Below the pieces are notes generated by a model. That model ran no database searches, was not told the origin of the DNA, and was given only the letters and a program-made list of their open reading frames with translations. This document shows, piece by piece, positions 1 through 14,525 of a DNA stretch of 58,403 nucleotides. The DNA is from Patescibacteria group bacterium (lineage in GTDB: Bacteria > Patescibacteriota > Microgenomatia > UBA1400 > 2-01-FULL-45-11). Position 1 is the stretch's first letter; each line of letters opens with the position of its first letter. The stretch spans positions 1 through 58,403 of the forward strand of contig JBHPHI010000003.1 of NCBI GenBank assembly GCA_042569595.1. Reading direction: 5' to 3'. The translations under genes were made by a program, and so were the position numbers.

Positions 1-2
1 TC

Positions 3-3000
3 TTTTTTGGAAATAATTTGTTTGTTTTTGGACCTAAAAGTAGCGTTCGTCCACTGAATTGCGCTGCCTGTTGTTATTAGTGTTAATAGGTCTGATTTTT
101 GTTTCGGATCACTAAGAATTTCTTGCGATTTTCCAACAAATACTATCTTCAACTTTCTATCTTTGTCTATAACTCTAACCTCATTAGAATTGTTTAGTAT
201 TTCATCTAGGTCTCTTTCAACTTGCGAAACCTCCTCTGCTTTTTTGATGATTCCAACATTAATAACAACCTTATTGTCCTTAATGCCCGCAAATTTGAAA
301 TCGCTCCAAGTTGCTCCTTGCTCGATTTCAAAAAGGTCATTTTTTATCCTTTCCCATGCAGACAGTTCTGATTTAACTATGTTTGAAAATGGGAGTAAGT
401 CTAATGCGTTATAGAAGGCAAGAAGTAGTGGAGGTGTTTTGGATTCTGTGTTTTCTCTATCCTCAGTTAATTCTTCTTGTTGTTGAGTGTTTTTTTCATC
501 AACCTCTCCTGCTTCAGATCTTTGAGTTCTAAACTCTTGAATGATTCTGTCCTGCTCTTCGAAGGCGTCTATAGCTTCGTACACTAAGTCTCTAATGAAG
601 AAGAAGGCTTTGGGAAAGAAGCTGACAAAATTGTTTCCTATTAAACTTAAGAAGGCTGAAAATGCTTGACCTGCTAGTTGAATCCTTCTTGTAATTGGAA
701 GCCTTGAAAGATCGATTCCTGTTTGCCCTCCTGGCTCATCGGTATCATCGTCGTCAACTTTTATTTGAACAGCGTTGGCTATTACAAATTTCTCTCTTGG
801 TTTTTGATATGAGAACTGACTTGAGTAAGTTTCATATGTTTGAGTGGTAGGAACTTGGAATCCGACCATGGTTTGTGAGACATCTACCTCTTCTGCGCCC
901 CTATATGCCTCACTGAGACCGTAATCTAATCCTACTGCCTTACCTCCAAAATGCTCACCAGCTGCACTAATACTGTGACCGAAATAAACTCTAGGAGCAT
1001 TAAATATTGCGTTGTATTCGTCAACAACCTGCTCATAAATAAAACCGTCTCTTCTGGTTAGGTTTTGGAATAGGCTTCTAGCCTCTGACCTGTTTCCAGA
1101 CCTTAATATTCCTTTTATATTTCCGTTAATTCTGTTTACTGTGTCCTGAGGAGATAAGCCTTCTCTTGCCGCTCTTGCTCTAAATTCCTTTAGATCTCTT
1201 AATACCTGATGATGGTCTATCCCTCCTTGCGGAGTTCTTGGTATCTGACCATATCTGTGGTCGTCTGGATATAGATAGTAGATGTAGGCTGGTGTGTCAG
1301 AATGTTGGAGAATAGAGCCATCTGATCTAAAACCAATAGCATCTAAATTAGCTAGAAAATCTCTAACTCCGCTAGTTCTGTTGGCTATTCTAATCTCTTC
1401 CCTACTAACTCCATTTTTTCTAAACAGAGTTCCTGGACCCCAAAGGTTCTCATTATTTTCTTCTAGCATGGCCCAAAGGAATTGGACTTCATGATTTCCT
1501 AGAAGCATCTCAACGTTGGCGCCCTGTTTTTTAAGATCAACCAGCCTTCTAATGATCTCTATTCCTGGGGAATAAGACCTTCCTCCCAGTCTTCTTACAA
1601 CAAATTGGGCGGGTTGGCCCGTAGCTTTATCAATACCTCTGTCGAAATAGTCTCCCAAAAAGGTGAGAATGTCGTGGTTTTTGTTTTTTAAGGTCCACGA
1701 TCCGTCACTGTTGACTGAAATGACACCTTGCCTGATTAGTATTTTTTCTAGTTTTGCCAAGTCTGAATGAACATCTGCAATTATCCTTCTAGTTGCTTGG
1801 GTGTATTGTGTTTCAGTTCCAACTTGCTTTGTGTGAGTTTGAACTGTGGTTTTGTGTGAAAGTCCGCTGATTACGTTATTGCTCATTTGAGCTGCTATTC
1901 TAGTAGCGTTTTGTGATAGCTGATCAACAATTCTTGTAATGTTTTCTTCTGAAATTCCAGCTTCTCGTAGTTTGTTGGTTAAATAATCAATAACTTTGGG
2001 TGAACTAAGGCGACTTATAATCCTATTGTAAGACTCGACCATAATTGTTTGTTGGACATCTGCCGGAGAAGCTTGAGTGTTTTGGAATTCTTGCTGAACC
2101 TGCCTGTTAACTGCAGTAGTTTCTTGGTTGATTATTGCCTGACTAAAATCATCTAGTACTCTGTCTGCCAATCTTTGCTGTGGGGTTTTAAATAGGTTTT
2201 GAACGTTGGATCTTAGTTGTTCTATTAAACTAATGGTTGGTTCTTGTTCCTCTTCCTGAGTGGTAGCTGGTGTGATTGGCTCTTCTGATCTATCTTTTGC
2301 TTGTTGACTTGGTGCCTTTGTTTCTTCTGCGAGTTTGTTGTTTAGATCATGATCAACCACCTTATGTCTTCCATATCTTCCTAAGAATGCTTCTGGGAGA
2401 GCTATTCCGTGCTCATTCATAAATAGAGCAACATCTGTCTCGTGATCTGATATAGATTGGTCGTGAGCAATTTGACTTAAAGCTCCAGAGTCGAGACCCC
2501 TGTCTTCTAACATAAATTGAAGTCCGTGTAACCATTCCTCAAGGTAAACTACAGCAATATTGTGCTGTTGGTTTCTAGTAAGCTCTCCATCAACTACTGA
2601 AGCCCAACCAAGCGTAATTTGTCCGTTGGTGTGATACATGGAGGCATAGGCTACATTGTTTGCAATTACTTGAGTCATTCCTTCTGTATCTTCTGCGTAA
2701 ATTTGACCTCTGCCCGTATCAACTAATATTCCTACTGCTTCTGCCTCTTTTTGACCAGTGCTTAAATGCTCTATTGCTTCTTTGTATTGACCGCTTTTGA
2801 TTAAGTCTACTGCTTGGCCAATGTAGTTTATGTACGCAGCCTCAGCTTCACTAAATTCTTGTCCCCTTAGGTTGGGTGACTGAGAAATAATCTTTTCATC
2901 TGTGGTTGGTGAGTCATCTATTTTGGCGGTTGTTCTTGCGGAGAATTCTAGGTTAATCTCTCCTTTACTAGTTTGCGTGATTATGACTGCCTGTCCGCCG

Positions 3001-6000
3001 ATTATTATTGTGTCTCCAGAGTTAATGATTTGAGTTCCAAGTTTTTCTATTAGTTTTCCGTTAACCAAAGTTCCGTTAGTGCTCCCTCTGTCTCTGATAA
3101 CCCAGTTTCCTTGATTATCTTTGTATATATCTGCGTGTTGTCTACTAATTTCTGGGTGACTAATAACAAATCTGTTGGCTGAGTTTCTACCAATTGTGAT
3201 TGGATTGTCTTGTGTGGCCCGATCAGAAGGTACTTTGTGTTGTGTATTTGAATCTAGATCTATTCTTACACTTGGTTCTGGTTGAGTTGTTGGATTGACA
3301 CTATCTATAACCTCATCTTGTGAGGATTCTTCAGTTTTTGGAGCTTCAGTTTCTTTGGGTGTTTCTTCAGTATCTGGAGTTATTTCTGATTCTGTAATAT
3401 CTTCTGTTGTCCCTCCCCTGCCAGTTTGCAAGGTTTGATCTGAGGGTGGTTTTCCGTCATCTGGGAGGGTATCGTCTGTTGGTGGAACTTCTTCTGGCGG
3501 TGGTTCTTGATCGTCAACATCATCCTCTCCTCCTTTTTCTTCTGAGTCAGGTTTTTCTTCCGTTGGCTTATCTTCCCTGGGTGACTCTTTTGGTTTATCT
3601 GGTTTTTCAGTCGTTGTTGCATCTGCTATTGGTCTGAATGGGCCATTAACGTCTTTGAAGCCTGCAATAATATCATCTTGTGTTGCTCCAGCTATTCCTA
3701 GATTTTCCAAAGCTTCTCTTATAGCCTGCTCATTTGCTCTGCCACTCTGGGCATATTCGTATTCTCTCTCAAGTTGTTGAAAATCACTCCTTCCTGACAA
3801 CCATGTGCTTAATGCAGCCCTAACTGATCTTTCACCCTCTGATCCTGTTAGGCCTCTTAAGAAATCTATGCCTTGATTTGAAGATATGCCGCCTTGAATT
3901 TGTTCTTGACTTAGTGCTCCTAATCCAATTACTGATCTACCAATATTGCTAAAATTACTAAATGCCCTGGCGATTGGTTGGACAACATTATAATTAAATG
4001 CTGGGCCCCATCTCTTTGGATTGATTATTGTTCTGGTTGCCTCTTGAACGGTTCTGGTAATAGAGGGTTTTGCTTTGGCTACATAAACTGCTGGCGGTGT
4101 ATCTAAACCCCTATTAACCACATCTGGCATATCAGATTTTGTATAAAATGAAGAGAATTCTTCAAATAAGGTAACGAAGTTTTTGGTTACATAAATCGGA
4201 GTGTCTGGTGTCGGGTTGTCTGAAAATCTTACTCTCCAAGCACCCTCTGCTTCATCGTAGGTTGCAAATCTGTTAATGTCTGGGTGGTCTCTGATTGTGG
4301 GAATGTCTGTATCCCACTGGCTCTTCATAAAATCAATAACTGACCTTGGAGCTCCTTCAACCTGTAGTCTGTCTACCAAGGCCCTAACTTGTTGATGGCC
4401 TGAGTCTATTAGATTAAATGCAACAATGTCGCTGTCAACACCTTTGTTTATAAGATTGGCGTTAAATTGTGAAGTTTCATCTATCTTAGTAAGTGCATTT
4501 TGGTATATTTTGTCCCATTTACCATGCTCTCTGCTTCCCGATCTTAGTGTGGATAAATGCTCGTCTCTAGCCCTTACTACTGCGTCTCTTTGCATGGCGC
4601 TGGTTAGGTCTGAGAAGTTTTTCCAGGCAATATCTTGGCTCTTGGCCTGAGTAGCTTTGGTTCTGTGACTTTCAAGGTCAAAAAGGCCTAAATCTCTTCC
4701 AGATGCAAACTCTTCCCAAGCAGTTGTTGCTCTGGCTGTTTCAACTATTTGATCAGCTTTTTCTGCAGCTAATCTTAATACTTCAGGATCGTTGGTGGGC
4801 CTTCCTGATTCTATAAGACGCGCTATCTCCGGGTCAGTTTCGATTAATTTATTAACTAATTGTCCATAGTCACCACCACCTTCACCAGTTTCAAAATTAT
4901 ATGTTTTTCTACCCCCATCTATATCGACCAATAAGGCAAGAAGTCTATTTCTTCCAACCCCCTGATTAACAAGGTCTCCATCTGAAGCTCTAATAACTAA
5001 ATCCCCTTCAAATGAATATTCTGTTAAGTGTTTCCAGGTAGGAATGTAGTTGCCCTCTACTACGTCTTTTATTGACACCCCTAAACTGACCCCCGTTTCT
5101 CTATTTAGTTGGTAAATAACTAGCAGCTCCTCCCCACTGTCAGCGGTTGAATCTTTAATAAACTTCCTCCAAGAATCGATGTCCGGATCGCCGTTTTTCT
5201 TTGTGAAATAAACCTTATCACCTAGTGAACCATCATCATTTCTGGTTCTTTGATAGAAAGATCCATCTGGGTCTGTGCCAGCAATAATTTTTCTACCTGG
5301 AAATTGCTTGTCTATGTAGGCGTCCATATCCTCCCAAGAAATGCCGCCGTTTTCGTTGACAATGGCAATTGGTTTGGTGATTTCATTAATCTCAGCCTGG
5401 AGAACGTTTGTTTTTCCTACATTGTTTATGTATTCAATGGAATCACTGTCTCCGTTAGTAATTCTTGAGATTTCAGCATCTAGCTCCTGAATCTTAGATT
5501 CGATCTGTTCTATAAGTTTTGTGTTACCAGAATTTCTGGCTGTTTCTGCTTCGACTAGTAATGCGTGCTTATTTTCTGATAATCTTACTGCCTCAACATA
5601 AACTTCTTCTCCTTTTATAGTTACTTCTTTTCCGCTTAGTATTCTTGTGGTTTCGGGGATTAATTCTGGCTTAGGCAAGTCTTGAATTCCTCCCCTGATT
5701 GAATCTAATTCTGTTTGAAGCCGAGGTGCATTGTTTGACACCTCTGATTGAGAGTGTCTTATCAATACCTGTTGTTGATCTGCGTCTAAATCTTGCCAAG
5801 ATACTTCTCCTTTTGATTTAATATTTCTTGCGTCTACGCCAGCATCTTCAATAATTCTTATAACTTGATTTGTATTTTGAAGCGTTTCTGCAACATGTCC
5901 TCTAGTGGCGTTATGAAGAATCATATCGGACATGTTTTCTCCTGTCTGACCAACTCTAGCTACTTCAATGTCTCTGGCAGTTCCCGAAACCTGCCCTCCA

Positions 6001-9000
6001 ATTCCCTTAAAGTTGTCGATTACGTCTCCTGGGGTGGCTGAGTAGCCAATCTTTGCAAGCAAACTTGCGTCGGTAATGACTCCTGCTTGTTCGAGTTTAA
6101 TGAACTCTTGGCGCTGTAGTTCTTGTTGTCTCATAATATCGATGGCATTGGTGGTGGATGAGTTTTTGCTAACTGAGAGTTTGGTTGGATCAAAATCTCC
6201 CCTAGGACTGTTGTTTTGGCCTCTAATTATGTCTACCCCCGTAGTGTTTTGAGCATATTGCTGCCAAAAGCTTTGCAGTTTTAGCTCGTTGTCCTGACCT
6301 TTTGTTCTTAGATTTGCTACTCCTTCTTCTACTGAAAAATCGTTTTGCCTAACCTGAGACATAACAAACAACTCTGCCTCCATAGCTGTGTTTTTAGCAA
6401 TAATTCTTTGCTGTAGAACCTCTAAGTCTCCGGTTTGATGAGAGTTTACAAACTCTTGCATAGCTTGCTTTATCTCATCTGGAGACATGTCTTTGGCTTT
6501 AGCTAGGGGTGAATCTCTGAAGGCTGGATGGTCTGACTCTGAAAGAACCATTTGTTTATAAATTTCGCTTTCGAAGTCAGGATTTAAAGGTCTTCCGCCC
6601 TCACCAAAAATAACACCAGCAACTCTTTGCTCGTTATTGTTGGCATCAATAACTTGTTTCCTAAGATTTTCAATTAATGGTAACTTTTGTACTTCATCAT
6701 GAATTTTCACTGGATCATAACTAAGATCTCCAGCAAAATCGATAAAATCTACTTCTTCTCCAGCGCTTCTATAGTAACCCCCGTCGGTAATTGGGGCTTC
6801 ATCTATAAGTTGGTGCTGTGAAGCAAGTTTTTGATACATGACTGCTTCTGGAGAAGTATCGTTCCCTCTAACGAATGAGAAGTTGTGTGATTTTTCGTCT
6901 GTCATAATGATAATTCTTTCACCACTTCCTAGCATTGCCTCTACTTCTTCCGTAATTATTGACCTGAAAGTGTCTCCATTTTTCCCATCTACTCTCTCTC
7001 CAGCGACCCTAATGGTAAACCCTTCATCTTGGTCATATGCGAGAACTCTAACCCCAGCTTGATCTAATAATTCTTGGTCTATAAAGTCGTTTTTAAAACT
7101 ATCTATTAATCCACCAGGGGCACGAATACTTACTGGGGCGCCTGTATCAGTAAGCACCAGAGCGGCAAGTGGTATTTGGACTAAGCTTTTTCCTGATCCT
7201 GCTCCTGATTCGATAACAACCTTTCCTTTAACGACTGCGTCAACAACATCAGTGATCTGGGTGAATCTTGCACCAGCTTCTGGGCCAAAAAGCCTTTGGA
7301 TATGAGTGTCCATAAGGTCAATATTGCTGTTTAGTTGATTAATTAAGGATTTTATTTCTGGAGGAGCTGACCTGCTGACTTCTATTCTTCTATCATTTTT
7401 GTCTATTTTGAGTAACCCATCGGACTCAAATTGCTGCAACTTAGCTATGAGATTTTTGCCAGTAAGTTCTGGGGTGAACGTTTTATCAGAATCACCCCGG
7501 AATCGGGATAAAAAGGTATCTTCAAACCACTGTCCCGCAGTTCTTCTGGTAGTTTGAATGTTTTCTGGTGTAACTGATCCTGATTTAATTTCTATCGCCT
7601 TTGGACTGTCACCAGTTGTTAGCTTGCTCATTGAGTCTGAAGAAATGGTGGCGTCAAGTCGATTTACATTTTCTGTTAATCGAATGGCGTGGCCTTCTGT
7701 GAGGAATTCTCCTGGTATCTTAGTTGAAGGATTGTTGTCGAAGGTAGCTCTAATTTGGTATTCGCCCGTACTTTCATTGAGTTTGTAGATGACTATTTGT
7801 TCACCGCTGTTTCTGCCTATTTCTAATGTTTTTCCGTTAATTTCAATTTTTGTGTCTTTGTTTAAAACTAAATCGTCTGGCGGGGCTCTGACAGGCGTGT
7901 CGTCTGTTGTTGTTTGGGTTCGTGTTGTTTCTTGCTCTGTTTGGTTTACTCTGGTTTCTTCAATGTCAGGTTGTGTAGGTTTAGATGATGGTAGATCCGT
8001 ATCTGTGGTTTCCGAATCAGCTAGTCTAGTTGTTTGTCCAGATATTTCTGTGTCTTGAGTTCTGTAACCACCAACTGGATTTCTCCAGCTGTCTCCGAAT
8101 CTACTCGTTCCAATTTGATTGGTTTGATTAATAAACCTATCTGCTGCAGCTTGGTGTGCATCAATGTCATCCACGTCAGTTGTGCGGATGGAGTTTTCAA
8201 ACTCTTCTTGAGCTTGCCTAAATTGAGCTGACTCCTCATTGTTTGTGAGTCTATCTATTGTTTTTCTTACTCCCGTTGTTAAACTAGCAGCCAAAATTGC
8301 TTGCTCCTGAGAAACTCTGCCGTATAGTTCTACTGATTTTTGTTTTGCATCAATGTCCGTTGGATTGTTCCTGTAGGCTTCATGCGCCTCAATATATGAT
8401 TGTTCTGTTGGTGTGGGGGTTTTCCCAACAGAACCTGCCAACCTTGTCATGTTGTTATCAAGTTCAACTTCTTTATATACAGAGAAGACGTTGTTTCTTA
8501 GATCAATATTTTCATTAAGGCTTGAAAGGGACTGACCTCTAACTACTTCTAATAGTCTTTGTTCGTTTAAGGTTAGGTTTCCATCATCTATTAATGATCT
8601 ACCATAGTTGATTCCCTGATCAATTGAAGCTTCAAACTGACCCTGAGCATATATTGCCCCCTGAAGCATTGCTTCTGCGTCTACTATTGTAAGTTTTATT
8701 GTTTGTCCATCTACTGGATTTACATAGTCTATAAACTCTGGGGCTCCTGGTTTTCGAAATTGCGCCATTAAATCATCTGCTTCTGCTAAGACAGGAAGTT
8801 TCCCAGTATAAGGGTCTGCTTGGACAGTTCTCATTGTGTGAATACCAACACCTAACTGCCCCGTATTAACCATAAGATTCGTCCAGGCTTGACTACATTG
8901 GGCAGGATTTGCGAGAGGCCCTCCTCCACAAGACATCATAATGTCCCACCCTGTTGCTGCTTCATCTATTACGTCGGTGCCTATATTCAGTCCTGTATCT

Positions 9001-12000
9001 ACAACCTGTGTTGCTCTATTGGATGATCCAGCAGGAATGAGAGACCCAGCAGTTCGAGCAAGAGCTAATCCAAGGTTAACTTTTGCTAAAGAACAGTTGC
9101 TTTCGCTGTAGTGTTCTGCGGAATCATCACATTGGATAGTCATATTTCCGTAAGCTAAACCACTTCCTGCGACTTGAGTGACTACGTTTGCAGCTCTAAA
9201 AGCATTTGAGGTTTGATTTGCCACTTGAGATGCTACCTTTTTAGCTGCCTCTAGTGAGCCTAAAGTTCCAGCTTTGGCAGCTGCTATGGCAGAATTTCCA
9301 ACAAGATTTGATATTAGAGTATCTCCTCCTCCAGCTCCCAGAAAAGCTCCTCCAACCTGAAGAACTGTTCCTCCAACAGCAAGCCCACACTGAAGACCAT
9401 CAAGCTCTTCTCCCCCACAAACGGTTCCTAAATTGTCTAAGCCAACGGTAGCGTTATAAATGCTAGCTCCAGTTTGAAGAGTGAAAGCTGTTTGAGCCAT
9501 GGCTGCCCATCCACCACCAGAAAGCCCTTGCCCTATTCCAGTAACTGCTCTTGTGAGAAGTCCTCCTGTTGAAGATGCTGCAATTGTCCCACCTGAAGCA
9601 ATGGCTGCCCCTGCCCCAAACACAGGAATGGCAATTGCTGCTATTTTGACTGCATCAGCTGCTGGGGCAGCTCCTTGAATGAGAGCTCCTCTTGTTCTGT
9701 CCCACCAAGTGTCTCCGTTTAGTAGTAGGTCATTTCCCCTCATGGTGGCACCGTTAGTTTTGTCGTTATAGTAGATTACAAATCTTGTTAATAGATCTCC
9801 ATTTTCTGCCATGTCATCATATGTTTGTTGCATTTCGGCAAAATTTACATTTATTTCATCTACTGTGATCCTTCCATCTCCGTTAATGTCTTCAAAATCA
9901 TCTACTTCTCCACTTTGCCACTTTTGATACCTTTCTACCTGAGCACATGCGTTGCTATCATTTTCAAAATTACAATTTATTACCTCTCCGGTATCTTCAT
10001 CAAATTCTATTTGTTGAAGATTCATAAGACTTGGAAGTATGTTTTGGTAAGCTAACGCTTGCTGTTGTTCAATGTTGTCTGATTCAAAATCGACTACACA
10101 ATTTCTTTCTGAATAATAATCTATGCCTCCGCTTTCATCGCATCTATAACCATCACTGCAACTGTTTTGTGTGCTGCCAATTAAATTTATGTTGCAGGTA
10201 CCAGCAGAGAGTCTTTGACTATCACTAACGACACAGCTCGTTCCCTCTACCTTATATCCATCTGGGCAACTAGGTCTGCCTTGACCAGTATTATATTGAG
10301 GATCAATTACACCATCGATTCCAAACGTATAACCATCATATATTCCTGGTACTCCCATTGCATCGTCTACCACACATGCGTTTTTATCCCCATCCCATCT
10401 AGCGTTAAGGCCCGGCATGGTTGCTCCACAGGCCTCTTGTCTGATTTCAAACCCTTCTTTTAGTTCTGTGTAGGTTTCATAACTTATTTCTCCTTGAGTG
10501 TACTGGTCTAGTAAATTGTCTCCGTATTCTTCATGTAGGTTTATGGCTGTATTTAGACTATTAATTGTTTCCTGGGGCAGAAATTGTCCGTAACTACCCT
10601 GTCCCATACAACCACCTGAATCGATTAAGCTTTCAATTCTAGCCATGCTGGTACCACCCTGCTCTCTTAAGCAGTCTTGCTGGACTGAAGACGATCCGTT
10701 AATCGCATAGTCTGCAAATTCACCCATGGGGTCTTTGCATCTTTCTCTATCTCTTCCTGGAGATGAATATTTTTCAAAACACATTTCAGCTAATCTCTCT
10801 ACATCTTGACTGGCAACTGCTGAGGCAATAGCTAAGGCATTGGCGTGAATTACTAAATCAGGATTTATTTCTCCTAATTGTTCTATTAGATTAGCTTGAT
10901 ACTCATCTCGATAAGTTGTGCATGCTTGTCCAGCATAACGAGCAGATTGTGCGTCCATACCCTGAATACTTGCCAAACATTCTTCTTGAGATTGTGTTGC
11001 TTGAGTCAGCATCCAAGAAGCTTCTGAATATATATAGTTAGTTTCTATGGCCTCTTTAATTTGATCCACCTGGTCTTCTCCAAACCTATCTTCTGCTTGT
11101 GTAAGTAGTTCTTCATATCTAATACAGCTTGGTGCTCCTGAGCTAGCTGTGCTGCCGCCGACGCCTTCACAAGCAGTTCCATATTCTTGTAAGTCTTCAT
11201 ATAATTCTTGGTTTTGTCGTGCAGTTTGTACTGTTTGACTTAAAGCTTCCTTCTGGTCATCGGATAATGCATTTCTTTCTTCTCTGTATTCAGCACAACC
11301 AGGAGCACTGTAGTTTCTCGAACATTCAACTCCTTGTTCTACTAAGTGGACTATACTTTCTTGTGCTTCGATTCTTTCTTGTGTGTCTGACAATATCCCA
11401 TCAAAAGCTCTTTGGTCGTCTCTTGACAGTGAGTCGTAGTCTGGCCAAAAACCCCTACAACCCTCATCCCACCTAGGCTTATCTGCGCATTCCAAACCCA
11501 ATTCAACTAGAGGACCTAGGGTGTAATTTATTCTGTCTTGTTCCTGAGCATAGGCTAAGGCTCTTTCGTACATTGCTTTTTGCTCATCTGTTAGGTTGCT
11601 TACTGTTTGCTCGTGACTGTAACACTCATAGTCTGAATAGGCTAAACTTCCTCTTTCTGGACAACTCAACCCTTCTTCAATTAATCCGCTTAATTGAGTA
11701 TCTATAAATATTTGAGCTTCTACTGAAGAACTGATAGCTTCTTGGGCTGCGGTAGATAATTGAGCCATTGCTGCAAAATGTGCCCTACACCTATCTTCTT
11801 CTCGACCATACATATTTTCAGGATCGGAACAAAAAATGCTATCTTCTAAAAGCCCCTCCCTATCTTCGTGAATAAGGTCTAAATCGCCTGCAGAATGCGT
11901 GTATCCAATTTCGACATTTTCTCTTTCAATAACGTAGTTAGGACCGTAAGTTACTTGACATCCTGGACACTCCATCCACTTACCATCGTTACATCTCCAT

Positions 12001-13100
12001 CTAACACCTGAGCTGTTTCTGGGTCCGGTTGCTGTTGTTCCGTGACCTACTGACCCAGCTTCTCCAGGACATGAGTCTCCAGTGTCTCCTCCAGCTGTTG
12101 CTGCTTCAAGTAAAGCTTGCCTTCTTAGGGCTTCTGCTTCTTGTGAAGCAACCTGCTCCCCATAGGCAGACAAAGCATCTCTTAAGGCTGCTCTTTTTTC
12201 TGGGTCCGCAACAAGAGCTATTTCTGCTTCAATATCAGGATTGCTTAAACCTACCCAACATCCACCATCTTTTTTTGCGCTACCATCTGGACAAGTTGAC
12301 GAAGATACTGGAACAAAAACTGTTCCTTCTGCGGCATTGTAATCTGGGATTGTGCCTGCGCATATTGTGCCGTTTGAATTATGACACTGACCATCACCTC
12401 CATAATGTTCGGTGGGGTTCCACTGACAACTTCCCCCAACACAAGATTGGCCACCACTACATTCTCCTGCTCCAACTCCACATACGCTGCACGTTGGTGG
12501 GTTTTGTTTATAGCAAGGAGCGCCAGCATATCCATAAAATTCCTCTGCTAGGGCGTTACAACCTCCACTTAATGACCCACCACAAAATCCTCCATCTGTT
12601 CCACCCGCACACCATTTGGTACAATTTTTTGCACAACCAGGATCTTTTCTGGTACAGACTCCTTTTGGCACTCCTGTTCCCGTAGAACGATTTCCCCAAT
12701 AATATATTCCACCGTTATAGTCTTTCATGTAAGAATCAGTAAGTTTGTTTCCTTTACAATTAGAGCTGTCCGAGACAATTCGCTTACTGTGACAGACTGT
12801 GCCGTTTGGAGTTTGCTTTCCAAGACCAAGATGCAGGCTTCCATCAACACACCTCTCGCTTCCGGTAAAATCCCATCCACCTGAGGCTGGTTCGCAAGAG
12901 TTTACCTCTGGGGGTGGAGTTGGAGGCGGGGTTGGAGGTACATGATCATCTGGAGTTGGAGCGGTGTATCCCGGCTCTTCAGGTTCGTAAGCAATTTCTG
13001 CTGCTTGAATGGGTTTGGCATATATAAAAGGAGTGAACAGATTTGCCAACAGAGAAATGAGGTTGATTATGGCGATGGTTCTTAGTTTTCTTTTATTCAT
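3..13100 (-). CDS. Giant multidomain membrane/exported protein, at least 4366 aa, running off the left edge of the window
   Basis: ATG at 13100 overlaps the upstream stop (ATGAATAA). Manual translation finds no in-frame stop down to base 3. Starts MNKRKLRTIAIINLISLLANLFTPFIYAKPIQAAE and ends in-window with ...KNKQIISKK. Probably absent from the ORF track because it has no stop in the window. Confidence 0.95.
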   Translation of the reverse strand, partial: MNKRKLRTIAIINLISLLANLFTPFIYAKPIQAAEIAYEPEEPGYTAPTPDDHVPPTPPPTPPPEVNSCEPASGGWDFTGSERCVDGSLHLGLGKQTPNGTVCHSKRIVSDSSNCKGNKLTDSYMKDYNGGIYYWGNRSTGTGVPKGVCTRKDPGCAKNCTKWCAGGTDGGFCGGSLSGGCNALAEEFYGYAGAPCYKQNPPTCSVCGVGAGECSGGQSCVGGSCQWNPTEHYGGDGQCHNSNGTICAGTIPDYNAAEGTVFVPVSSSTCPDGSAKKDGGCWVGLSNPDIEAEIALVADPEKRAALRDALSAYGEQVASQEAEALRRQALLEAATAGGDTGDSCPGEAGSVGHGTTATGPRNSSGVRWRCNDGKWMECPGCQVTYGPNYVIERENVEIGYTHSAGDLDLIHEDREGLLEDSIFCSDPENMYGREEDRCRAHFAAMAQLSTAAQEAISSSVEAQIFIDTQLSGLIEEGLSCPERGSLAYSDYECYSHEQTVSNLTDEQKAMYERALAYAQEQDRINYTLGPLVELGLECADKPRWDEGCRGFWPDYDSLSRDDQRAFDGILSDTQERIEAQESIVHLVEQGVECSRNYSAPGCAEYREERNALSDDQKEALSQTVQTARQNQELYEDLQEYGTACEGVGGSTASSGAPSCIRYEELLTQAEDRFGEDQVDQIKEAIETNYIYSEASWMLTQATQSQEECLASIQGMDAQSARYAGQACTTYRDEYQANLIEQLGEINPDLVIHANALAIASAVASQDVERLAEMCFEKYSSPGRDRERCKDPMGEFADYAINGSSSVQQDCLREQGGTSMARIESLIDSGGCMGQGSYGQFLPQETINSLNTAINLHEEYGDNLLDQYTQGEISYETYTELKEGFEIRQEACGATMPGLNARWDGDKNACVVDDAMGVPGIYDGYTFGIDGVIDPQYNTGQGRPSCPDGYKVEGTSCVVSDSQRLSAGTCNINLIGSTQNSCSDGYRCDESGGIDYYSERNCVVDFESDNIEQQQALAYQNILPSLMNLQQIEFDEDTGEVINCNFENDSNACAQVERYQKWQSGEVDDFEDINGDGRITVDEINVNFAEMQQTYDDMAENGDLLTRFVIYYNDKTNGATMRGNDLLLNGDTWWDRTRGALIQGAAPAADAVKIAAIAIPVFGAGAAIASGGTIAASSTGGLLTRAVTGIGQGLSGGGWAAMAQTAFTLQTGASIYNATVGLDNLGTVCGGEELDGLQCGLAVGGTVLQVGGAFLGAGGGDTLISNLVGNSAIAAAKAGTLGSLEAAKKVASQVANQTSNAFRAANVVTQVAGSGLAYGNMTIQCDDSAEHYSESNCSLAKVNLGLALARTAGSLIPAGSSNRATQVVDTGLNIGTDVIDEAATGWDIMMSCGGGPLANPAQCSQAWTNLMVNTGQLGVGIHTMRTVQADPYTGKLPVLAEADDLMAQFRKPGAPEFIDYVNPVDGQTIKLTIVDAEAMLQGAIYAQGQFEASIDQGINYGRSLIDDGNLTLNEQRLLEVVRGQSLSSLNENIDLRNNVFSVYKEVELDNNMTRLAGSVGKTPTPTEQSYIEAHEAYRNNPTDIDAKQKSVELYGRVSQEQAILAASLTTGVRKTIDRLTNNEESAQFRQAQEEFENSIRTTDVDDIDAHQAAADRFINQTNQIGTSRFGDSWRNPVGGYRTQDTEISGQTTRLADSETTDTDLPSSKPTQPDIEETRVNQTEQETTRTQTTTDDTPVRAPPDDLVLNKDTKIEINGKTLEIGRNSGEQIVIYKLNESTGEYQIRATFDNNPSTKIPGEFLTEGHAIRLTENVNRLDATISSDSMSKLTTGDSPKAIEIKSGSVTPENIQTTRRTAGQWFEDTFLSRFRGDSDKTFTPELTGKNLIAKLQQFESDGLLKIDKNDRRIEVSRSAPPEIKSLINQLNSNIDLMDTHIQRLFGPEAGARFTQITDVVDAVVKGKVVIESGAGSGKSLVQIPLAALVLTDTGAPVSIRAPGGLIDSFKNDFIDQELLDQAGVRVLAYDQDEGFTIRVAGERVDGKNGDTFRSIITEEVEAMLGSGERIIIMTDEKSHNFSFVRGNDTSPEAVMYQKLASQHQLIDEAPITDGGYYRSAGEEVDFIDFAGDLSYDPVKIHDEVQKLPLIENLRKQVIDANNNEQRVAGVIFGEGGRPLNPDFESEIYKQMVLSESDHPAFRDSPLAKAKDMSPDEIKQAMQEFVNSHQTGDLEVLQQRIIAKNTAMEAELFVMSQVRQNDFSVEEGVANLRTKGQDNELKLQSFWQQYAQNTTGVDIIRGQNNSPRGDFDPTKLSVSKNSSTTNAIDIMRQQELQRQEFIKLEQAGVITDASLLAKIGYSATPGDVIDNFKGIGGQVSGTARDIEVARVGQTGENMSDMILHNATRGHVAETLQNTNQVIRIIEDAGVDARNIKSKGEVSWQDLDADQQQVLIRHSQSEVSNNAPRLQTELDSIRGGIQDLPKPELIPETTRILSGKEVTIKGEEVYVEAVRLSENKHALLVEAETARNSGNTKLIEQIESKIQELDAEISRITNGDSDSIEYINNVGKTNVLQAEINEITKPIAIVNENGGISWEDMDAYIDKQFPGRKIIAGTDPDGSFYQRTRNDDGSLGDKVYFTKKNGDPDIDSWRKFIKDSTADSGEELLVIYQLNRETGVSLGVSIKDVVEGNYIPTWKHLTEYSFEGDLVIRASDGDLVNQGVGRNRLLALLVDIDGGRKTYNFETGEGGGDYGQLVNKLIETDPEIARLIESGRPTNDPEVLRLAAEKADQIVETARATTAWEEFASGRDLGLFDLESHRTKATQAKSQDIAWKNFSDLTSAMQRDAVVRARDEHLSTLRSGSREHGKWDKIYQNALTKIDETSQFNANLINKGVDSDIVAFNLIDSGHQQVRALVDRLQVEGAPRSVIDFMKSQWDTDIPTIRDHPDINRFATYDEAEGAWRVRFSDNPTPDTPIYVTKNFVTLFEEFSSFYTKSDMPDVVNRGLDTPPAVYVAKAKPSITRTVQEATRTIINPKRWGPAFNYNVVQPIARAFSNFSNIGRSVIGLGALSQEQIQGGISSNQGIDFLRGLTGSEGERSVRAALSTWLSGRSDFQQLEREYEYAQSGRANEQAIREALENLGIAGATQDDIIAGFKDVNGPFRPIADATTTEKPDKPKESPREDKPTEEKPDSEEKGGEDDVDDQEPPPEEVPPTDDTLPDDGKPPSDQTLQTGRGGTTEDITESEITPDTEETPKETEAPKTEESSQDEVIDSVNPTTQPEPSVRIDLDSNTQHKVPSDRATQDNPITIGRNSANRFVISHPEISRQHADIYKDNQGNWVIRDRGSTNGTLVNGKLIEKLGTQIINSGDTIIIGGQAVIITQTSKGEINLEFSARTTAKIDDSPTTDEKIISQSPNLRGQEFSEAEAAYINYIGQAVDLIKSGQYKEAIEHLSTGQKEAEAVGILVDTGRGQIYAEDTEGMTQVIANNVAYASMYHTNGQITLGWASVVDGELTRNQQHNIAVVYLEEWLHGLQFMLEDRGLDSGALSQIAHDQSISDHETDVALFMNEHGIALPEAFLGRYGRHKVVDHDLNNKLAEETKAPSQQAKDRSEEPITPATTQEEEQEPTISLIEQLRSNVQNLFKTPQQRLADRVLDDFSQAIINQETTAVNRQVQQEFQNTQASPADVQQTIMVESYNRIISRLSSPKVIDYLTNKLREAGISEENITRIVDQLSQNATRIAAQMSNNVISGLSHKTTVQTHTKQVGTETQYTQATRRIIADVHSDLAKLEKILIRQGVISVNSDGSWTLKNKNHDILTFLGDYFDRGIDKATGQPAQFVVRRLGGRSYSPGIEIIRRLVDLKKQGANVEMLLGNHEVQFLWAMLEENNENLWGPGTLFRKNGVSREEIRIANRTSGVRDFLANLDAIGFRSDGSILQHSDTPAYIYYLYPDDHRYGQIPRTPQGGIDHHQVLRDLKEFRARAAREGLSPQDTVNRINGNIKGILRSGNRSEARSLFQNLTRRDGFIYEQVVDEYNAIFNAPRVYFGHSISAAGEHFGGKAVGLDYGLSEAYRGAEEVDVSQTMVGFQVPTTQTYETYSSQFSYQKPREKFVIANAVQIKVDDDDTDEPGGQTGIDLSRLPITRRIQLAGQAFSAFLSLIGNNFVSFFPKAFFFIRDLVYEAIDAFEEQDRIIQEFRTQRSEAGEVDEKNTQQQEELTEDRENTESKTPPLLLAFYNALDLLPFSNIVKSELSAWERIKNDLFEIEQGATWSDFKFAGIKDNKVVINVGIIKKAEEVSQVERDLDEILNNSNEVRVIDKDRKLKIVFVGKSQEILSDPKQKSDLLTLITTGSAIQWTNATFRSKNKQIISKK
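900..1790 (-). other. PPP-family metallophosphatase domain in the giant protein
   Basis: Ordered motifs IADVHSD (DVH 1767-1775), LGDYFDRG (1635-1655), LGNHE (1488-1499), QHSD (His at 1302), FGHS (972-983) and GLDYG (918-929). Confidence 0.9.
2400..2560 (-). other. Zincin-like metal-binding motif (EExxH variant) in the giant protein
   Basis: VYLEEWLHGLQ (EEWLH 2526-2540), followed about 30 aa later by DHETDVA (2427-2444). Confidence 0.5.
2994..3200 (-). other. FHA domain in the giant protein
   Basis: ITIGRNSANRFVISHPEISRQHADIYKDNQGNWVIRDRGSTNGTLVNG...GDTIIIG has the conserved GR, SxxH and STNGT motifs. Confidence 0.92.
4900..7260 (-). other. SecA-like/SF2 (DEAD-type) ATPase module in the giant protein
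   Basis: Walker A VIESGAGSGKS (7185-7205), Walker B-like LIDEA (6795-6809), motif III GYSATP (6033-6041) and motif VI-like NQGVGRNR (4944-4964), in SF2 order. Confidence 0.75.
8820..9660 (-). other. Gly/Ala-rich hydrophobic helical bundle with three Cys-paired loops
   Basis: Segments such as AVKIAAIAIPVFGAGAAIASGG and GLAVGGTVLQVGGAFLGAG. Loops C-x9-C (9387-9419), C-x11-C (9093-9131) and C-x10-C (8895-8930). Confidence 0.65.
9855..9890 (-). other. EF-hand-type Ca-binding loop in the giant protein
   Basis: DINGDGRITVDE fits D-x-N-x-D-G-x-I-x-x-x-E. Confidence 0.65.
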
Positions 13101-13779
13101 TGAATGTCTTTTCTACTCTGATTGGTGGAAAAGGTGCATGTATTTTTTGATCAATTAGTTGTTGCCCGTCTAAATTAAGATTTCCAACTGCCCTAATGAA
13201 CAACTTATCTGCCTTGTACATAATTGGGCTTATGTCTACTGAAAAATTTCCAAAACTATTTGTCTCAGTAATTACTGGATGATGATATTCGGGTGTGGCT
13301 GGAGAAATAGTCACTATAGCTCCTGGAATTCCAACCCCCTCCTCATCAACTACGACACCATATGCTGGCTCTGGGAGTTGAGGAGCCTCTTCTCTTTGAG
13401 TAATCGTTTTTACTTTTTGGCTATATTTAGTAGTTTTGGTGCCAGAGATTATATAGATAGAGTAATTAGTGTCTGGGGTGAGGTTTTTTATTTCCAGTAG
13501 GTGTGTTCTTGTTTTGTTGATTGACTCACACGCAAATCTGAATTGATTAAATTTGTCTGTGTGAGCGAAAAGGCAGCTCCTATTTTGTTTCCCAGTTATC
13601 CAAGAAACATAAAGTGACCTTTCTCCAATATTTCCAACCTGAATTATTGAAGGCCTTTCTTTTGAAAACTGGAGATAGACTATAAATAATGCAATTGTTA
13701 ATTGAACAATTGAAATATAATGTTTTTTGATTAAATCTAAGATGATATTGATGATTTCTTTTGCTTTTATGTTTTTCAT
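13093..13779 (-). CDS. Membrane-anchored Fn3 (purple acid phosphatase N-terminal-like) plus carboxypeptidase-regulatory-like domain protein
   Basis: N-terminal TM segment; LYVSWIT...THLLEIKNLTPDTNYSIYI (Fn3); PAYGVVVDEEG...GAIVTI...TNSFGNFSVD. Confidence 0.7.
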   Translation of the reverse strand: MKNIKAKEIINIILDLIKKHYISIVQLTIALFIVYLQFSKERPSIIQVGNIGERSLYVSWITGKQNRSCLFAHTDKFNQFRFACESINKTRTHLLEIKNLTPDTNYSIYIISGTKTTKYSQKVKTITQREEAPQLPEPAYGVVVDEEGVGIPGAIVTISPATPEYHHPVITETNSFGNFSVDISPIMYKADKLFIRAVGNLNLDGQQLIDQKIHAPFPPIRVEKTFNE

Positions 13780-14525
13780 TTGAATTGATTTAAAATAATT
13801 TCTTGATTGGTTTTAACCATGTAGCCAATTCCTTCTTCTATCTTGAAATCGGTACCATACTCTTTGATGTTGTCTTGTGAATATAGTCTTTTTACAAATG
13901 GCTCCCATGTTCCTGATCGCCACCAGTCTATTTCGTTAGCATTTTCGTTCCCGTTGCTATTTAAGTTGTTTAAGATTGAACTGGCTGTTTTTTCTTGAGC
14001 AACAAATCCTACTGTATTCCAGCCTTTTTGAAGCAAGATTTCTCCAACATCATTTCTGGTGAGAGGCTCTCCAATAATTTTCCAATCAAAAGTTTTGTGA
14101 TTTCTTAAGAAGTATGCTTTTCCTGGCTCAATAGAAAAATTGCTTCCGTATTGCTCTTGTCCTCGTTGGGTGTATTCCTGCCACCTATCACCATCCCACA
14201 TGCTAACAGTGGTTACGTATCCTCCTTTGTCGGCTACATCCACAACCAGCTCTGCAGCGGTTCGAAAATTGAACGGCTTGTGTGGAAATGAGACAAGATT
14301 CCATCCATTTAGCATTTTTATTATCACCTTGTGATCTGATACCTCTTGTTTTTCGAATGGGACAACTGCTTCTTCATCAAAACTTGCTTGAGAAAGGTTT
14401 GTGAAAGTTGATGAGTATTCTTCTGAGGCTTTTGGTAATTGAGATTTTATTGTTATTCCAACAACTAGCAGGGCAAGTAATGTTGCGACAATTATGAATA
14501 TGATTTTTTTAGTGTTTTTATTCAT
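13776..14525 (-). CDS. Exported protein with two GWN(L/T)V-F repeat domains
   Basis: N-terminal TM segment then PKAS. Repeats GWNLVSFP...W...W..Y...F.IEPGKAYF and GWNTVGF...WW...W...F.IEEGIGYM. Confidence 0.8.
   Translation of the reverse strand: MNKNTKKIIFIIVATLLALLVVGITIKSQLPKASEEYSSTFTNLSQASFDEEAVVPFEKQEVSDHKVIIKMLNGWNLVSFPHKPFNFRTAAELVVDVADKGGYVTTVSMWDGDRWQEYTQRGQEQYGSNFSIEPGKAYFLRNHKTFDWKIIGEPLTRNDVGEILLQKGWNTVGFVAQEKTASSILNNLNSNGNENANEIDWWRSGTWEPFVKRLYSQDNIKEYGTDFKIEEGIGYMVKTNQEIILNQFK

What the first reader, a model, noticed from the sequence alone, without database searches (positions are those of the whole stretch)
4900..7260. Divergent SecA-like ATPase embedded in the giant protein
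Seen: GAGSGKS followed by a hydrophobic helix, LIDEA, GYSATP and NQGVGRNR, in SecA/SF2 order. Long insertions lie between motifs II and III, where SecA has its preprotein-binding domain, and before motif V. Inference: a built-in translocation motor just after the membrane bundle that could thread downstream cargo, or a nucleic-acid helicase.
Basis: partly seen in the sequence, partly recalled or inferred. Interest (0 to 1): 0.8.

Follow-up and report, generated by a model that had tools for sequence, protein, structure and literature searches.

The report
Orphan helicase-like P-loop in giant protein
A giant membrane-anchored protein of a tiny-genome (CPR-like) bacterium carries one credible ATP-binding lobe of the helicase type, but the claimed complete SecA-like two-lobe motor cannot be shown, and the whole segment has no detectable relative in any database searched.

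Summary
The four strings are present, in the stated order, in a minus-strand ORF of at least 4366 aa: GAGSGKS aa 1966, LIDEA 2098, GYSATP 2352, NQGVGRNR 2712. Only the first part passes testing. Residues about 1945-2105 behave like the first RecA-like lobe of an SF1/SF2 helicase-type P-loop NTPase. The Walker A context is highly non-random. DEAD-box and UvrD motif blocks find their best match in the whole protein just downstream of it.

There are two rival Walker B candidates: IITEEVE (2047-2053, DEAD-box-like) and LIDEA (UvrD-like, with SecA-like spacing). GYSATP is marginal. NQGVGRNR is no better than chance, and its spacing is GRxR, not GRxxR. No second lobe, PPXD or SecA-specific signal was found with Pfam, NCBIfam, PDB, custom HMMs or hhalign.

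AlphaFold2 failed twice (pLDDT 34-38), because the segment has no homologue among about 15 billion proteins, so the fold test could not be run.

Divergent SecA-like domains next to membrane regions of giant proteins are already published. That makes the SecA idea plausible but not new. It is unproven here.

The parts
3..13100 (-). Giant ORF (P0001, at least 4366 aa, runs off the contig start). Order: signal peptide, Cys-rich ectodomain, Gly/Ala-rich membrane segments (aa ~1140-1400), then a Cys-free part holding the P-loop lobe, FHA (aa 3301-3368) and a PPP phosphatase (aa 3773-3893).
6786..7268 (-). aa ~1945-2105: the credible P-loop NTPase lobe (helicase-type RecA-like lobe 1).
   Evidence: hhalign vs DEAD-box gave 105 collinear columns. 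HMMER and hhalign shuffle tests. Block scans.
7185..7205 (-). Walker A / motif I, GAGSGKS, in the context KGKVVIES-GAGSGKS-LVQIPLAALVL (strand, loop, helix).
   Evidence: The UvrD motif I block has its top hit in the whole protein here (16 bits). hhalign vs PcrA gave P = 0.0022 over 29 columns.
7110..7136 (-). aa 1989-1997, PVSIRAPGG: motif Ia-like strand and turn.
   Evidence: Aligned to PTRELA by hhalign. The DEAD 'hhhGTPGR' block has its top hit at aa 1987 (p per position 2.9e-5).
6918..6968 (-). aa 2045-2061, FRSIITEEVEAMLGSGE: Walker B candidate 1 (DEAD-box motif II-like, with EEVE in place of DEVD). It could instead be an amphipathic helix.
   Evidence: Top hit of the DEAD motif II block in the 4366 aa (18.1 bits, p per position 3.3e-6). 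The same segment aligned to the RFC4 Walker B in the PDB search (E = 0.27). Low-confidence AF2 secondary structure calls it a helix.
6861..6914 (-). aa 2063-2080, IIIMTDEKSHNFSFVRGN: motif Ib-like, resembling SecA ITYGTNNEFGFDYLRDN.
   Evidence: SecA Ib core block ranks 4 of 4350, window-corrected p 0.009. Collinear in the hhalign alignments.
6795..6809 (-). aa 2098-2102, LIDEA: Walker B candidate 2 (canonical D-E).
   Evidence: Top hit of the UvrD motif II block (10.4 bits, p per position 6.1e-5). Chance-level against SecA and DEAD motif II blocks.
5301..6785 (-). aa 2106-2600: orphan segment, mostly helical with a coiled coil, and no family signal. Contains GYSATP (window 6030-6047), whose motif III status is marginal.
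   Evidence: Low-confidence AF2 secondary structure. Coiled-coil-type hit to ABC_tran_CTD at aa 2529-2576 (E 0.002-0.006). PPXD, NBD2 and DEAD lobe-2 HMMs score at the shuffle median. GYSATP PSSM test.
4881..5300 (-). aa 2601-2740: strand-rich module ending in NQGVGRNR (window 4944-4967). It could be threaded by eye on an SF2 lobe 2, but has no statistical support.

Best explanation
Residues about 1945-2105 of the giant protein form a real but extremely diverged P-loop NTPase lobe of the helicase (SF1/SF2, RecA-like lobe 1) type. It has a strand-GAGSGKS-helix Walker A, a motif Ia-like PVSIRAPGG, and an acidic box that is either IITEEVE (aa 2047-2053) or LIDEA (aa 2098-2102).

It sits about 550 residues after the membrane segments, in the Cys-free part of the protein. 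I infer that it binds ATP and probably hydrolyses it slowly, acting as a nucleotide-dependent switch or motor for the giant protein.

The following 630 residues (helical/coiled segment plus a small strand-rich module) are orphan sequence. GYSATP is at most marginally motif-like, and NQGVGRNR is probably a chance string. A second RecA lobe, a PPXD and SecA membership are not demonstrated.

Shown: the Walker A context, the co-location of motif blocks, and the absence of any family-level hit. Inferred: the fold, ATPase activity and role.
For: Lobe-1 piece (aa 1941-2135) against custom profiles:
- DEAD-box lobe-1 HMM: 6.0 bits, reached by 2 of 2000 shuffles. It matched aa 1951-1995 and aa 2043-2060.
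- UvrD N-terminal HMM: 4.8 bits, reached by 1 of 2000 shuffles.
- hhalign z-scores: UvrD 7.1, ABC 5.4, FtsK 3.4, DEAD 3.1. Only DEAD gave a long collinear alignment (105-106 columns covering motifs I, Ia, Ib and II).

Block scans over all 4366 residues:
- DEAD motif II block best at aa 2045 (p per position 3.3e-6).
- DEAD Ib-type block best at aa 1987.
- UvrD motif I block best at aa 1962.
- UvrD motif II block best at aa 2094.
All four lie within 140 residues of the Walker A.

Other points:
- A four-motif series in this order occurred in 0.02% of shuffles.
- None of the nine other giant ORFs of the genome has even a loose Walker A.
Against: - No Pfam, NCBIfam, PADLOC, PHROG or PDB sequence hit at any useful E-value.
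- Absolute scores are tiny: 6 bits in HMMER, and hhalign probabilities of 1-13%.
- Much of the signal is the P-loop alone, which also scores against ABC and FtsK profiles.
- The Walker A starts with S.
- Both Walker B candidates are imperfect: one has E for D, the other has a weak hydrophobic strand.
- No lobe 2 or arginine finger was detected, so hydrolysis may be absent.
- There is no homologue to show conservation.
- Both AlphaFold2 models are unusable.
Confidence: 0.5

Rival explanations
1. One reading: the whole of aa 1947-2734 is a very diverged SecA-type motor. NBD1 would carry a PPXD-like insert between LIDEA and GYSATP, and NBD2 would end in NQGVGRNR. Anchored through the giant protein's own membrane segments, it would help export or thread part of the protein, as proposed for SecA-like modules of other giant proteins.
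For: - Spacing fits SecA better than DEAD-box. Walker A Lys to the Ib Thr is 96 residues here, 95 in SecA and 74 in DEAD-box. Ib Thr to the D-E is 33 here, 31 in SecA and 24 in DEAD-box (positions).
- A low-stringency hhalign gives a 138-column collinear NBD1 alignment (28% identity).
- hhalign against a divergent CPR SecA-like family gives 127 collinear columns.
- The SecA Ib block ranks 4 of 4350, and the SecA motif III block at GYSATP ranks 8.
- Published precedent: most giant Omnitrophota proteins, and some actinobacterial ones, carry divergent SecA_DEAD plus preprotein-binding domains next to transmembrane regions and lack the scaffold and wing domains (bioRxiv 10.1101/2023.11.21.568195).
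Against: - PF07517 does not hit the region, either by hmmscan or in the six-frame genome search that found the canonical SecA on contig C9.
- hhalign against 30 SecA sequences gave probability 0.4% and a non-collinear alignment.
- The SecA NBD1 HMM scored 0.7 bits, reached by 76 of 2000 shuffles. The divergent SecA-like NBD1 HMM scored -0.3 bits, reached by 196 of 2000.
- PPXD, NBD2 and whole-SecA HMMs score at the shuffle median.
- LIDEA and NQGVGRNR score at chance against SecA blocks.
- The published giant-protein SecA modules are Pfam-detectable; this one is not.
Confidence: 0.15
2. The strings are remnants or coincidences. The segment has no working nucleotide site and serves as a structural or spacer part of a fast-evolving giant surface protein.
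For: - No homologue and no family hit anywhere.
- A loose Walker A pattern alone appears in 27-40% of shuffles of a protein this long.
- Both Walker B candidates are non-canonical, and no arginine finger or lobe 2 was found.
- The genome holds about nine other giant ORFs, and the three scanned had no informative Pfam domain, so orphan filler sequence is common here.
Against: - The Walker A sits in a textbook strand-loop-helix context that beats 1999 of 2000 and 70 of 70 shuffles.
- Independent motif blocks from two helicase families have their best whole-protein matches right next to it, in the correct order.
Confidence: 0.2
3. It is a nucleic-acid helicase or translocase (SF1 or SF2) tethered to the membrane, acting on DNA or RNA rather than protein.
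For: The best-matching profiles for the P-loop lobe are UvrD/PcrA and DEAD-box helicases.
Against: - No helicase lobe 2 or 2A domain was found with DEAD-box or PcrA C-terminal profiles.
- UvrD motifs Ia and III are at chance.
- No nucleic-acid-binding domain was found in the protein by Pfam.
- The neighbouring domains are signalling ones, FHA and a PPP phosphatase.
Confidence: 0.1

Closest known systems
DEAD-box / DEAD-like SF2 helicase lobe 1 (Pfam PF00270)
   Same: The context upstream of and around motif I matches (KGK-VVIES-GAGSGKS-LVQIPL here, against GKDVVG-ANTGTGKT-AAFLIPL). There is a motif Ia-like strand followed by Pro. The box IITEEVEAMLGSG resembles IVLDEVDxMLDMG. hhalign gives 105 collinear columns.
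   Different: PF00270 does not reach any reportable score. Motif II would be EEVE. Motifs Ia to III are more tightly spaced than in DEAD-box proteins. No SAT strand lies at the expected distance, and no Helicase_C lobe is detectable.
SecA (PF07517 SecA_DEAD, PF01043 PPXD) and the SecA-like modules of giant proteins described in bioRxiv 10.1101/2023.11.21.568195
   Same: It lies in a giant protein with membrane segments. Spacing of motifs I, Ib and II is SecA-like. There are FSFVRGN and LIDEA look-alikes of FDYLRDN and ILIDEA. A long insert follows the acidic box. The genome also has a separate canonical SecA.
   Different: No SecA HMM or profile signal appears for NBD1, PPXD or NBD2. The P-loop is GAGSGKS, not TGEGKT. 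The motif VI look-alike is at chance level. The published modules are Pfam-detectable, and this one is not.
UvrD/PcrA-type SF1 helicases (PF00580)
   Same: The P-loop (S)GAGSGKS is nearly the UvrD AGAGSGKT. The UvrD motif I and motif II blocks have their best whole-protein matches at aa 1962 and aa 2094.
   Different: Motifs Ia and III are at chance. No 1B or 2A/2B domains are found. The distance from motif I to motif II is 129 residues, against 184 in PcrA.
Divergent SecA-like paralogues of Patescibacteria (alignment A7; L116, P0002-P0010, 940-1014 aa)
   Same: They come from the same lineage. hhalign gives a collinear 127-column alignment through motifs I, Ia and Ib.
   Different: The score is not significant: hhalign P = 0.073, z = 2.3, and HMMER -0.3 bits. 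Those proteins keep TGEGKT, AEAD and SSGS, and are Pfam-positive for PF07517. None is found in this genome.

Membership tests
SecA | Match to the SecA_DEAD profile (PF07517), or to a profile of SecA NBD1 | tested here: not met
   No Pfam hit. The genome-wide PF07517 search finds the canonical SecA on C9 but not this ORF. hhalign probability was 0.4%. The NBD1 HMM scored 0.7 bits, reached by 76 of 2000 shuffles.
SecA | Preprotein cross-linking domain (PPXD) inserted after motif II | tested here: not met
   A 250-residue insert exists between LIDEA and GYSATP. A PPXD HMM built from 30 SecA sequences scores -0.7 bits, reached by 386 of 1000 shuffles.
SecA | NBD2 with motifs V and VI (RGRSGRQGD arginine fingers) | tested here: not met
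   The NBD2 HMM scores at the shuffle median. NQGVGRNR ranks 130 of 4352 against the SecA motif VI block.
SecA | Two RecA-like folds in a 3D model | not testable with these tools
   AlphaFold2 on a single sequence gave pLDDT 38 (900 aa) and 34 (195 aa). Foldseek on the model returned nothing with E <= 0.001. No homologues exist to build an alignment.
SF2 helicase (DEAD-like) | Motif I (Walker A) in a strand-loop-helix context with motif Ia downstream | tested here: met
   HMMER scored 6.0 bits (2 of 2000 shuffles), and the alignment is collinear.
SF2 helicase (DEAD-like) | Motif II DExD/H | tested here: inconclusive
   IITEEVE is the best DEAD motif II match in the protein (p per position 3.3e-6) but has E for D. 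LIDEA has D-E but scores -0.4 bits against the DEAD block.
SF2 helicase (DEAD-like) | Second lobe (Helicase_C; motifs IV, V, VI) | tested here: not met
   The DEAD lobe-2 HMM scored -0.2 bits, reached by 210 of 1000 shuffles. The best hits of blocks IV to VI are scattered over the protein. There is no Pfam Helicase_C hit.
SF1 helicase (UvrD/PcrA-like) | Motifs I and II | tested here: met
   The whole-protein best hits of both blocks are at aa 1962 and aa 2094. hhalign on the P-loop gave P = 0.0022.
SF1 helicase (UvrD/PcrA-like) | Motifs Ia and III, and the 2A domain | tested here: not met
   Motifs Ia and III each rank 60. The C-terminal PcrA HMM scores at the shuffle median.
P-loop NTPase (ASCE division) | Walker A GxxxxGK[ST] after a hydrophobic strand, plus a Walker B acidic residue after a strand | tested here: inconclusive
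   Walker A is met apart from S at position 1. There are two imperfect Walker B candidates. The fold itself could not be tested.
SecA-like modules of giant proteins (bioRxiv 10.1101/2023.11.21.568195) | Giant ORF with transmembrane regions, plus Pfam-detectable SecA_DEAD and SecA preprotein-binding domains | tested here: not met
   The giant ORF and membrane segments are present. The two Pfam domains are absent. The sequences of the published modules were not available for direct comparison.

The most novel reading that the evidence does not exclude
The segment is a self-contained protein-translocation motor derived from SecA or SF2 but diverged beyond recognition, fused to its own membrane anchor. 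It would thread the downstream Cys-free part of the protein (at least 1600 residues in the window, carrying the FHA domain, a zincin-like module and a WipA/NinI-like phosphatase) out of the cell, possibly into the host cell on which this reduced-genome bacterium lives. That would make it a one-polypeptide secretion system plus effector.
Probability: 0.06. Interest if true: 0.85.

Novelty: new variant of a known kind. Interest (0 to 1): 0.4.

Why it matters
Giant proteins of ultra-small bacteria are largely uncharacterised. Published work suggests that many carry their own SecA-like module next to membrane segments.

This protein would extend that theme to a CPR-like genome, but with a module so diverged that only the nucleotide-binding loop and its immediate surroundings are recognisable. 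It also has no relative among about 15 billion proteins.

If the lobe is an active ATPase, it marks where energy enters a protein of at least 4366 residues that joins a disulfide-rich surface head to Cys-free signalling enzymes. If it is inactive, it is an example of motif decay in fast-evolving giant genes.

In either case, motif reading alone over-called a complete motor here.

Tried and rejected
- **Library scans.** Pfam, NCBIfam, PADLOC and PHROGs on the whole protein and on sub-pieces gave nothing for aa 1900-2800, apart from a 27-residue UvrD P-loop hit (E = 0.19) and a coiled-coil hit.
- **PDB sequence searches.** Only RFC4 Walker B at E = 0.27.
- **Homologue searches.** Only the protein itself was found in every one:
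  - word-indexed search on the region and on the whole protein;
  - exhaustive phmmer against 1.84 billion representatives;
  - six-frame search of 60 relatives and of 200 genomes of the same order;
  - Genome contigs and metagenome contigs;
  - phmmer --max against the organism's own ORFs;
  - BLASTP against the genome's other giant ORFs.
- **AlphaFold2.** Run on 900 aa and on 195 aa. Both models were unusable, and Foldseek on the first was meaningless.
- **Custom profiles built from relatives.** SecA (A1), DEAD-box (A2), UvrD N-terminal (A3), RecD (A4), ABC (A5), FtsK (A6), divergent SecA-like (A7) and full PcrA (A8). RecD and ABC HMMs scored at shuffle level.
- **By-eye threading.** A threading of aa 2600-2720 on an SF2 lobe 2 (KIIAGT = motif IV, LLVIYQLNRETGVSL = motif V, NQGVGRNR = motif VI) was considered and dropped, because no profile or block test supports it.
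- **RecD-type reading.** A GDxxQ reading of FAGDLSYDPV was rejected.

Full report
**Setting.** The window is one whole contig (C3) of a 912-kb, 47-contig genome, 88% complete by the tool's estimate. Its gene content and size suggest a CPR/Patescibacteria organism. Relatives of a side family I retrieved are labelled Roizmanbacteria and Patescibacteria.

The finding lies inside a minus-strand ORF at 3..13100 that encodes at least 4366 aa and runs off the contig. Pfam recognises only an FHA domain (aa 3301-3368) and a calcineurin-like phosphatase (aa 3773-3893). The N-terminal 1402 residues hold a signal-like segment, 56 Cys, and Gly/Ala-rich hydrophobic segments. The remaining 2964 residues hold no Cys at all.

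**The observation.** GAGSGKS (aa 1966), LIDEA (aa 2098), GYSATP (aa 2352) and NQGVGRNR (aa 2712) are all present in that order. A loosely defined series of this kind turned up in 1 of 5000 whole-protein shuffles. That overstates significance, because the motifs were chosen after the fact.

Closer inspection weakens three of the four strings:
- The Walker A begins with Ser.
- LIDEA follows polar residues.
- QGVGRNR has the spacing GRxR rather than GRxxR.

**No relatives.** This segment has no detectable homologue.
- The word-indexed search of 5.8 billion clusters returned only the protein itself.
- So did an exhaustive phmmer of 1.84 billion representatives.
- Six-frame searches of 60 relatives and of 200 genomes of the order were empty.
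- Two contig collections were empty.

With no alignment available, AlphaFold2 gave pLDDT 38 for 900 aa and 34 for the 195-aa core.

**Library tests.** Pfam, NCBIfam, PADLOC, PHROGs and PDB sequence searches gave nothing for aa 1900-2800, apart from a 27-residue UvrD P-loop match (E = 0.19), a coiled-coil-type match, and an RFC4 Walker B match at E = 0.27. The genome has an ordinary SecA on contig C9. The same PF07517 search did not touch the giant ORF.

**Custom profile tests.** I built profiles from relatives of this organism: 30 SecA, 15 DEAD-box, 13 UvrD/PcrA, 4 RecD, 14 ABC, 12 FtsK, and 10 members of a divergent SecA-like paralogue family found in passing.

For aa 1941-2135, tested against 2000 shuffles with HMMER:

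| Profile | Score (bits) | Shuffles reaching it (of 2000) |
|---|---|---|
| DEAD-box lobe 1 | 6.0 | 2 |
| UvrD N-terminal | 4.8 | 1 |
| FtsK | 1.6 | 33 |
| SecA NBD1 | 0.7 | 76 |
| Divergent SecA-like NBD1 | -0.3 | 196 |
| ABC | -0.7 | 334 |
| RecD | -1.1 | 359 |

The DEAD-box hit came in two pieces, aa 1951-1995 and aa 2043-2060. The ABC and RecD scores are at background.

hhalign z-scores were UvrD 7.1, ABC 5.4, FtsK 3.4, DEAD 3.1, divergent SecA-like 2.3 and SecA 2.1. Only the DEAD-box profile gave a long collinear alignment, 105-106 columns through motifs I, Ia, Ib and II.

For aa 2100-2800, DEAD lobe 2, SecA PPXD, SecA NBD2, whole SecA and the PcrA C-terminal domains all scored at the median of shuffles.

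**Block scans.** I scanned ungapped position-specific blocks over all 4366 residues, using the genome's own ORFs as background.
- The DEAD-box motif II block scores best at aa 2045, FRSIITEEVEAMLGSGE (18.1 bits, p per position 3.3e-6).
- The DEAD 'hhhGTPGR' block scores best at aa 1987.
- The UvrD motif I block scores best at aa 1962.
- The UvrD motif II block scores best at aa 2094, SQHQLIDEAPITDG (10.4 bits, p per position 6.1e-5).

Four independent blocks from two helicase families thus have their best match in the protein within 140 residues of the Walker A, in the correct order. This is the strongest evidence that a helicase-type nucleotide-binding lobe is really there.

GYSATP ranks 8th against SecA motif III (window-corrected p 0.047). 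NQGVGRNR ranks 113-130th against motif VI blocks.

**Which acidic box is the Walker B?** This stays open.
- IITEEVE is the better residue match to DEAD-box motif II, and it is also what RFC4 aligned to. However, it has Glu for Asp, its hydrophobic pattern fits an amphipathic helix, and both low-confidence models draw it as a helix.
- LIDEA has the canonical D-E and the best UvrD-type score.
- LIDEA also gives SecA-like spacing. Walker A Lys to the Ib Thr is 96 residues, against 95 in SecA and 74 in DEAD-box. Ib Thr to D-E is 33 residues, against 31 and 24.

**The SecA idea.** It is not absurd. A low-stringency hhalign gives a 138-column collinear NBD1 alignment. IIMTDEKSHNFSFVRGN resembles ITYGTNNEFGFDYLRDN, ranking 4 of 4350.

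A preprint reports that most giant Omnitrophota proteins, and some actinobacterial ones, carry divergent SecA_DEAD and preprotein-binding domains beside transmembrane regions. These lack the scaffold and wing domains and coexist with a normal SecA (bioRxiv 10.1101/2023.11.21.568195).

Those modules are Pfam-detectable, though, and this one is not. No test specific for SecA (NBD1 profile, PPXD, NBD2, motif VI) passed here.

**Verdict.** One credible, extremely diverged helicase-type P-loop lobe lies at aa about 1945-2105 (window 6786-7268). It is followed by about 630 residues of orphan sequence whose 'motif III' is marginal and whose 'motif VI' is at chance level. I give the readings these weights:
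- Lone, or at least only demonstrable, nucleotide-binding lobe acting as a switch or motor: 0.5
- True SecA-like motor: 0.15
- Non-functional remnant or chance: 0.2
- Nucleic-acid helicase: 0.1

Even if SecA-like, the kind is already described for giant proteins. The unusual points are the depth of divergence and the complete absence of relatives.

Noticed in passing
window 1-55 (start of contig C3); L033 (C23) and L036 (C42): The first 55 bases of the contig are identical to the ends of two other contigs, an assembly fork. Joined to C23, the giant ORF continues to 7375 aa. Joined to C42, it stops after 17 more residues, at 4383 aa. The C23 continuation has 10 Cys, whereas the window's C-terminal 2964 residues have none.
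   Followed up: partly
window 3-8894 (aa 1403-4366 of the giant ORF): There are no Cys in 2964 consecutive residues after 56 Cys in the first 1402. At the genome's Cys frequency of 0.63%, the probability is about 8e-9. Other giant ORFs of the genome are also nearly Cys-free (C7 3549 aa: 1; C16 1474 aa: 0; C33 1781 aa: 0). This could mean that these parts are exported or translocated unfolded rather than being ordinary cytoplasmic domains.
   Followed up: partly
genome contigs C7, C16, C20, C23, C33 (L033-L039): The 912-kb genome holds about nine further ORFs of 1200-3500 aa, several cut by contig ends. None resembles the window's giant ORF by BLASTP. The three scanned (C23, and two on C7) have no Pfam domain except a MerR-type HTH at the start of the 3549-aa ORF on C7. 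None of the nine has even a loose Walker A.
   Followed up: partly
L116 (relative G004, contig C21, 1049-2890) and proteins P0002-P0010: A family of divergent SecA-like paralogues (940-1014 aa) occurs in Patescibacteria alongside canonical SecA. Features are LPTGEGKT, IVYxDPNSLGFDYLED, VAEADS in place of DEVD, SSGSL in place of TGTA, and QALQRAxRGD in place of motif VI. No copy was found in the window's own genome.
   Followed up: partly
window 1400-1800 (aa 3767-3895): The PPP phosphatase gives weak matches to the Legionella Dot/Icm effector WipA family (NCBIfam T4SS_Wip, E = 0.0012; Pfam WipA_Phos, E = 0.19) and to phage NinI-like phosphatases (PHROG 246, E = 6.5e-5). It therefore resembles effector-type or phage-type enzymes more than housekeeping ones.
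   Followed up: no
window 1-14000 versus the rest: GC content is 0.39-0.43 over the giant gene and its two upstream genes. It is 0.32-0.38 over most of the remaining window. The cause may be amino-acid composition or foreign origin.
   Followed up: no
window 5373-5516 (aa 2529-2576): A coiled-coil-like stretch (LIEQIESKIQELDAEISRI...) gives the only Pfam signal inside the finding: ABC_tran_CTD, E 0.002-0.006, below the cut-off.
   Followed up: no
window 28370-30244 and 32128-34974: The window holds two ordinary UvrD-family helicases: a PcrA-like protein of 624 aa and a 948-aa paralogue on the minus strand. They served as positive controls for the helicase profiles.
   Followed up: partly
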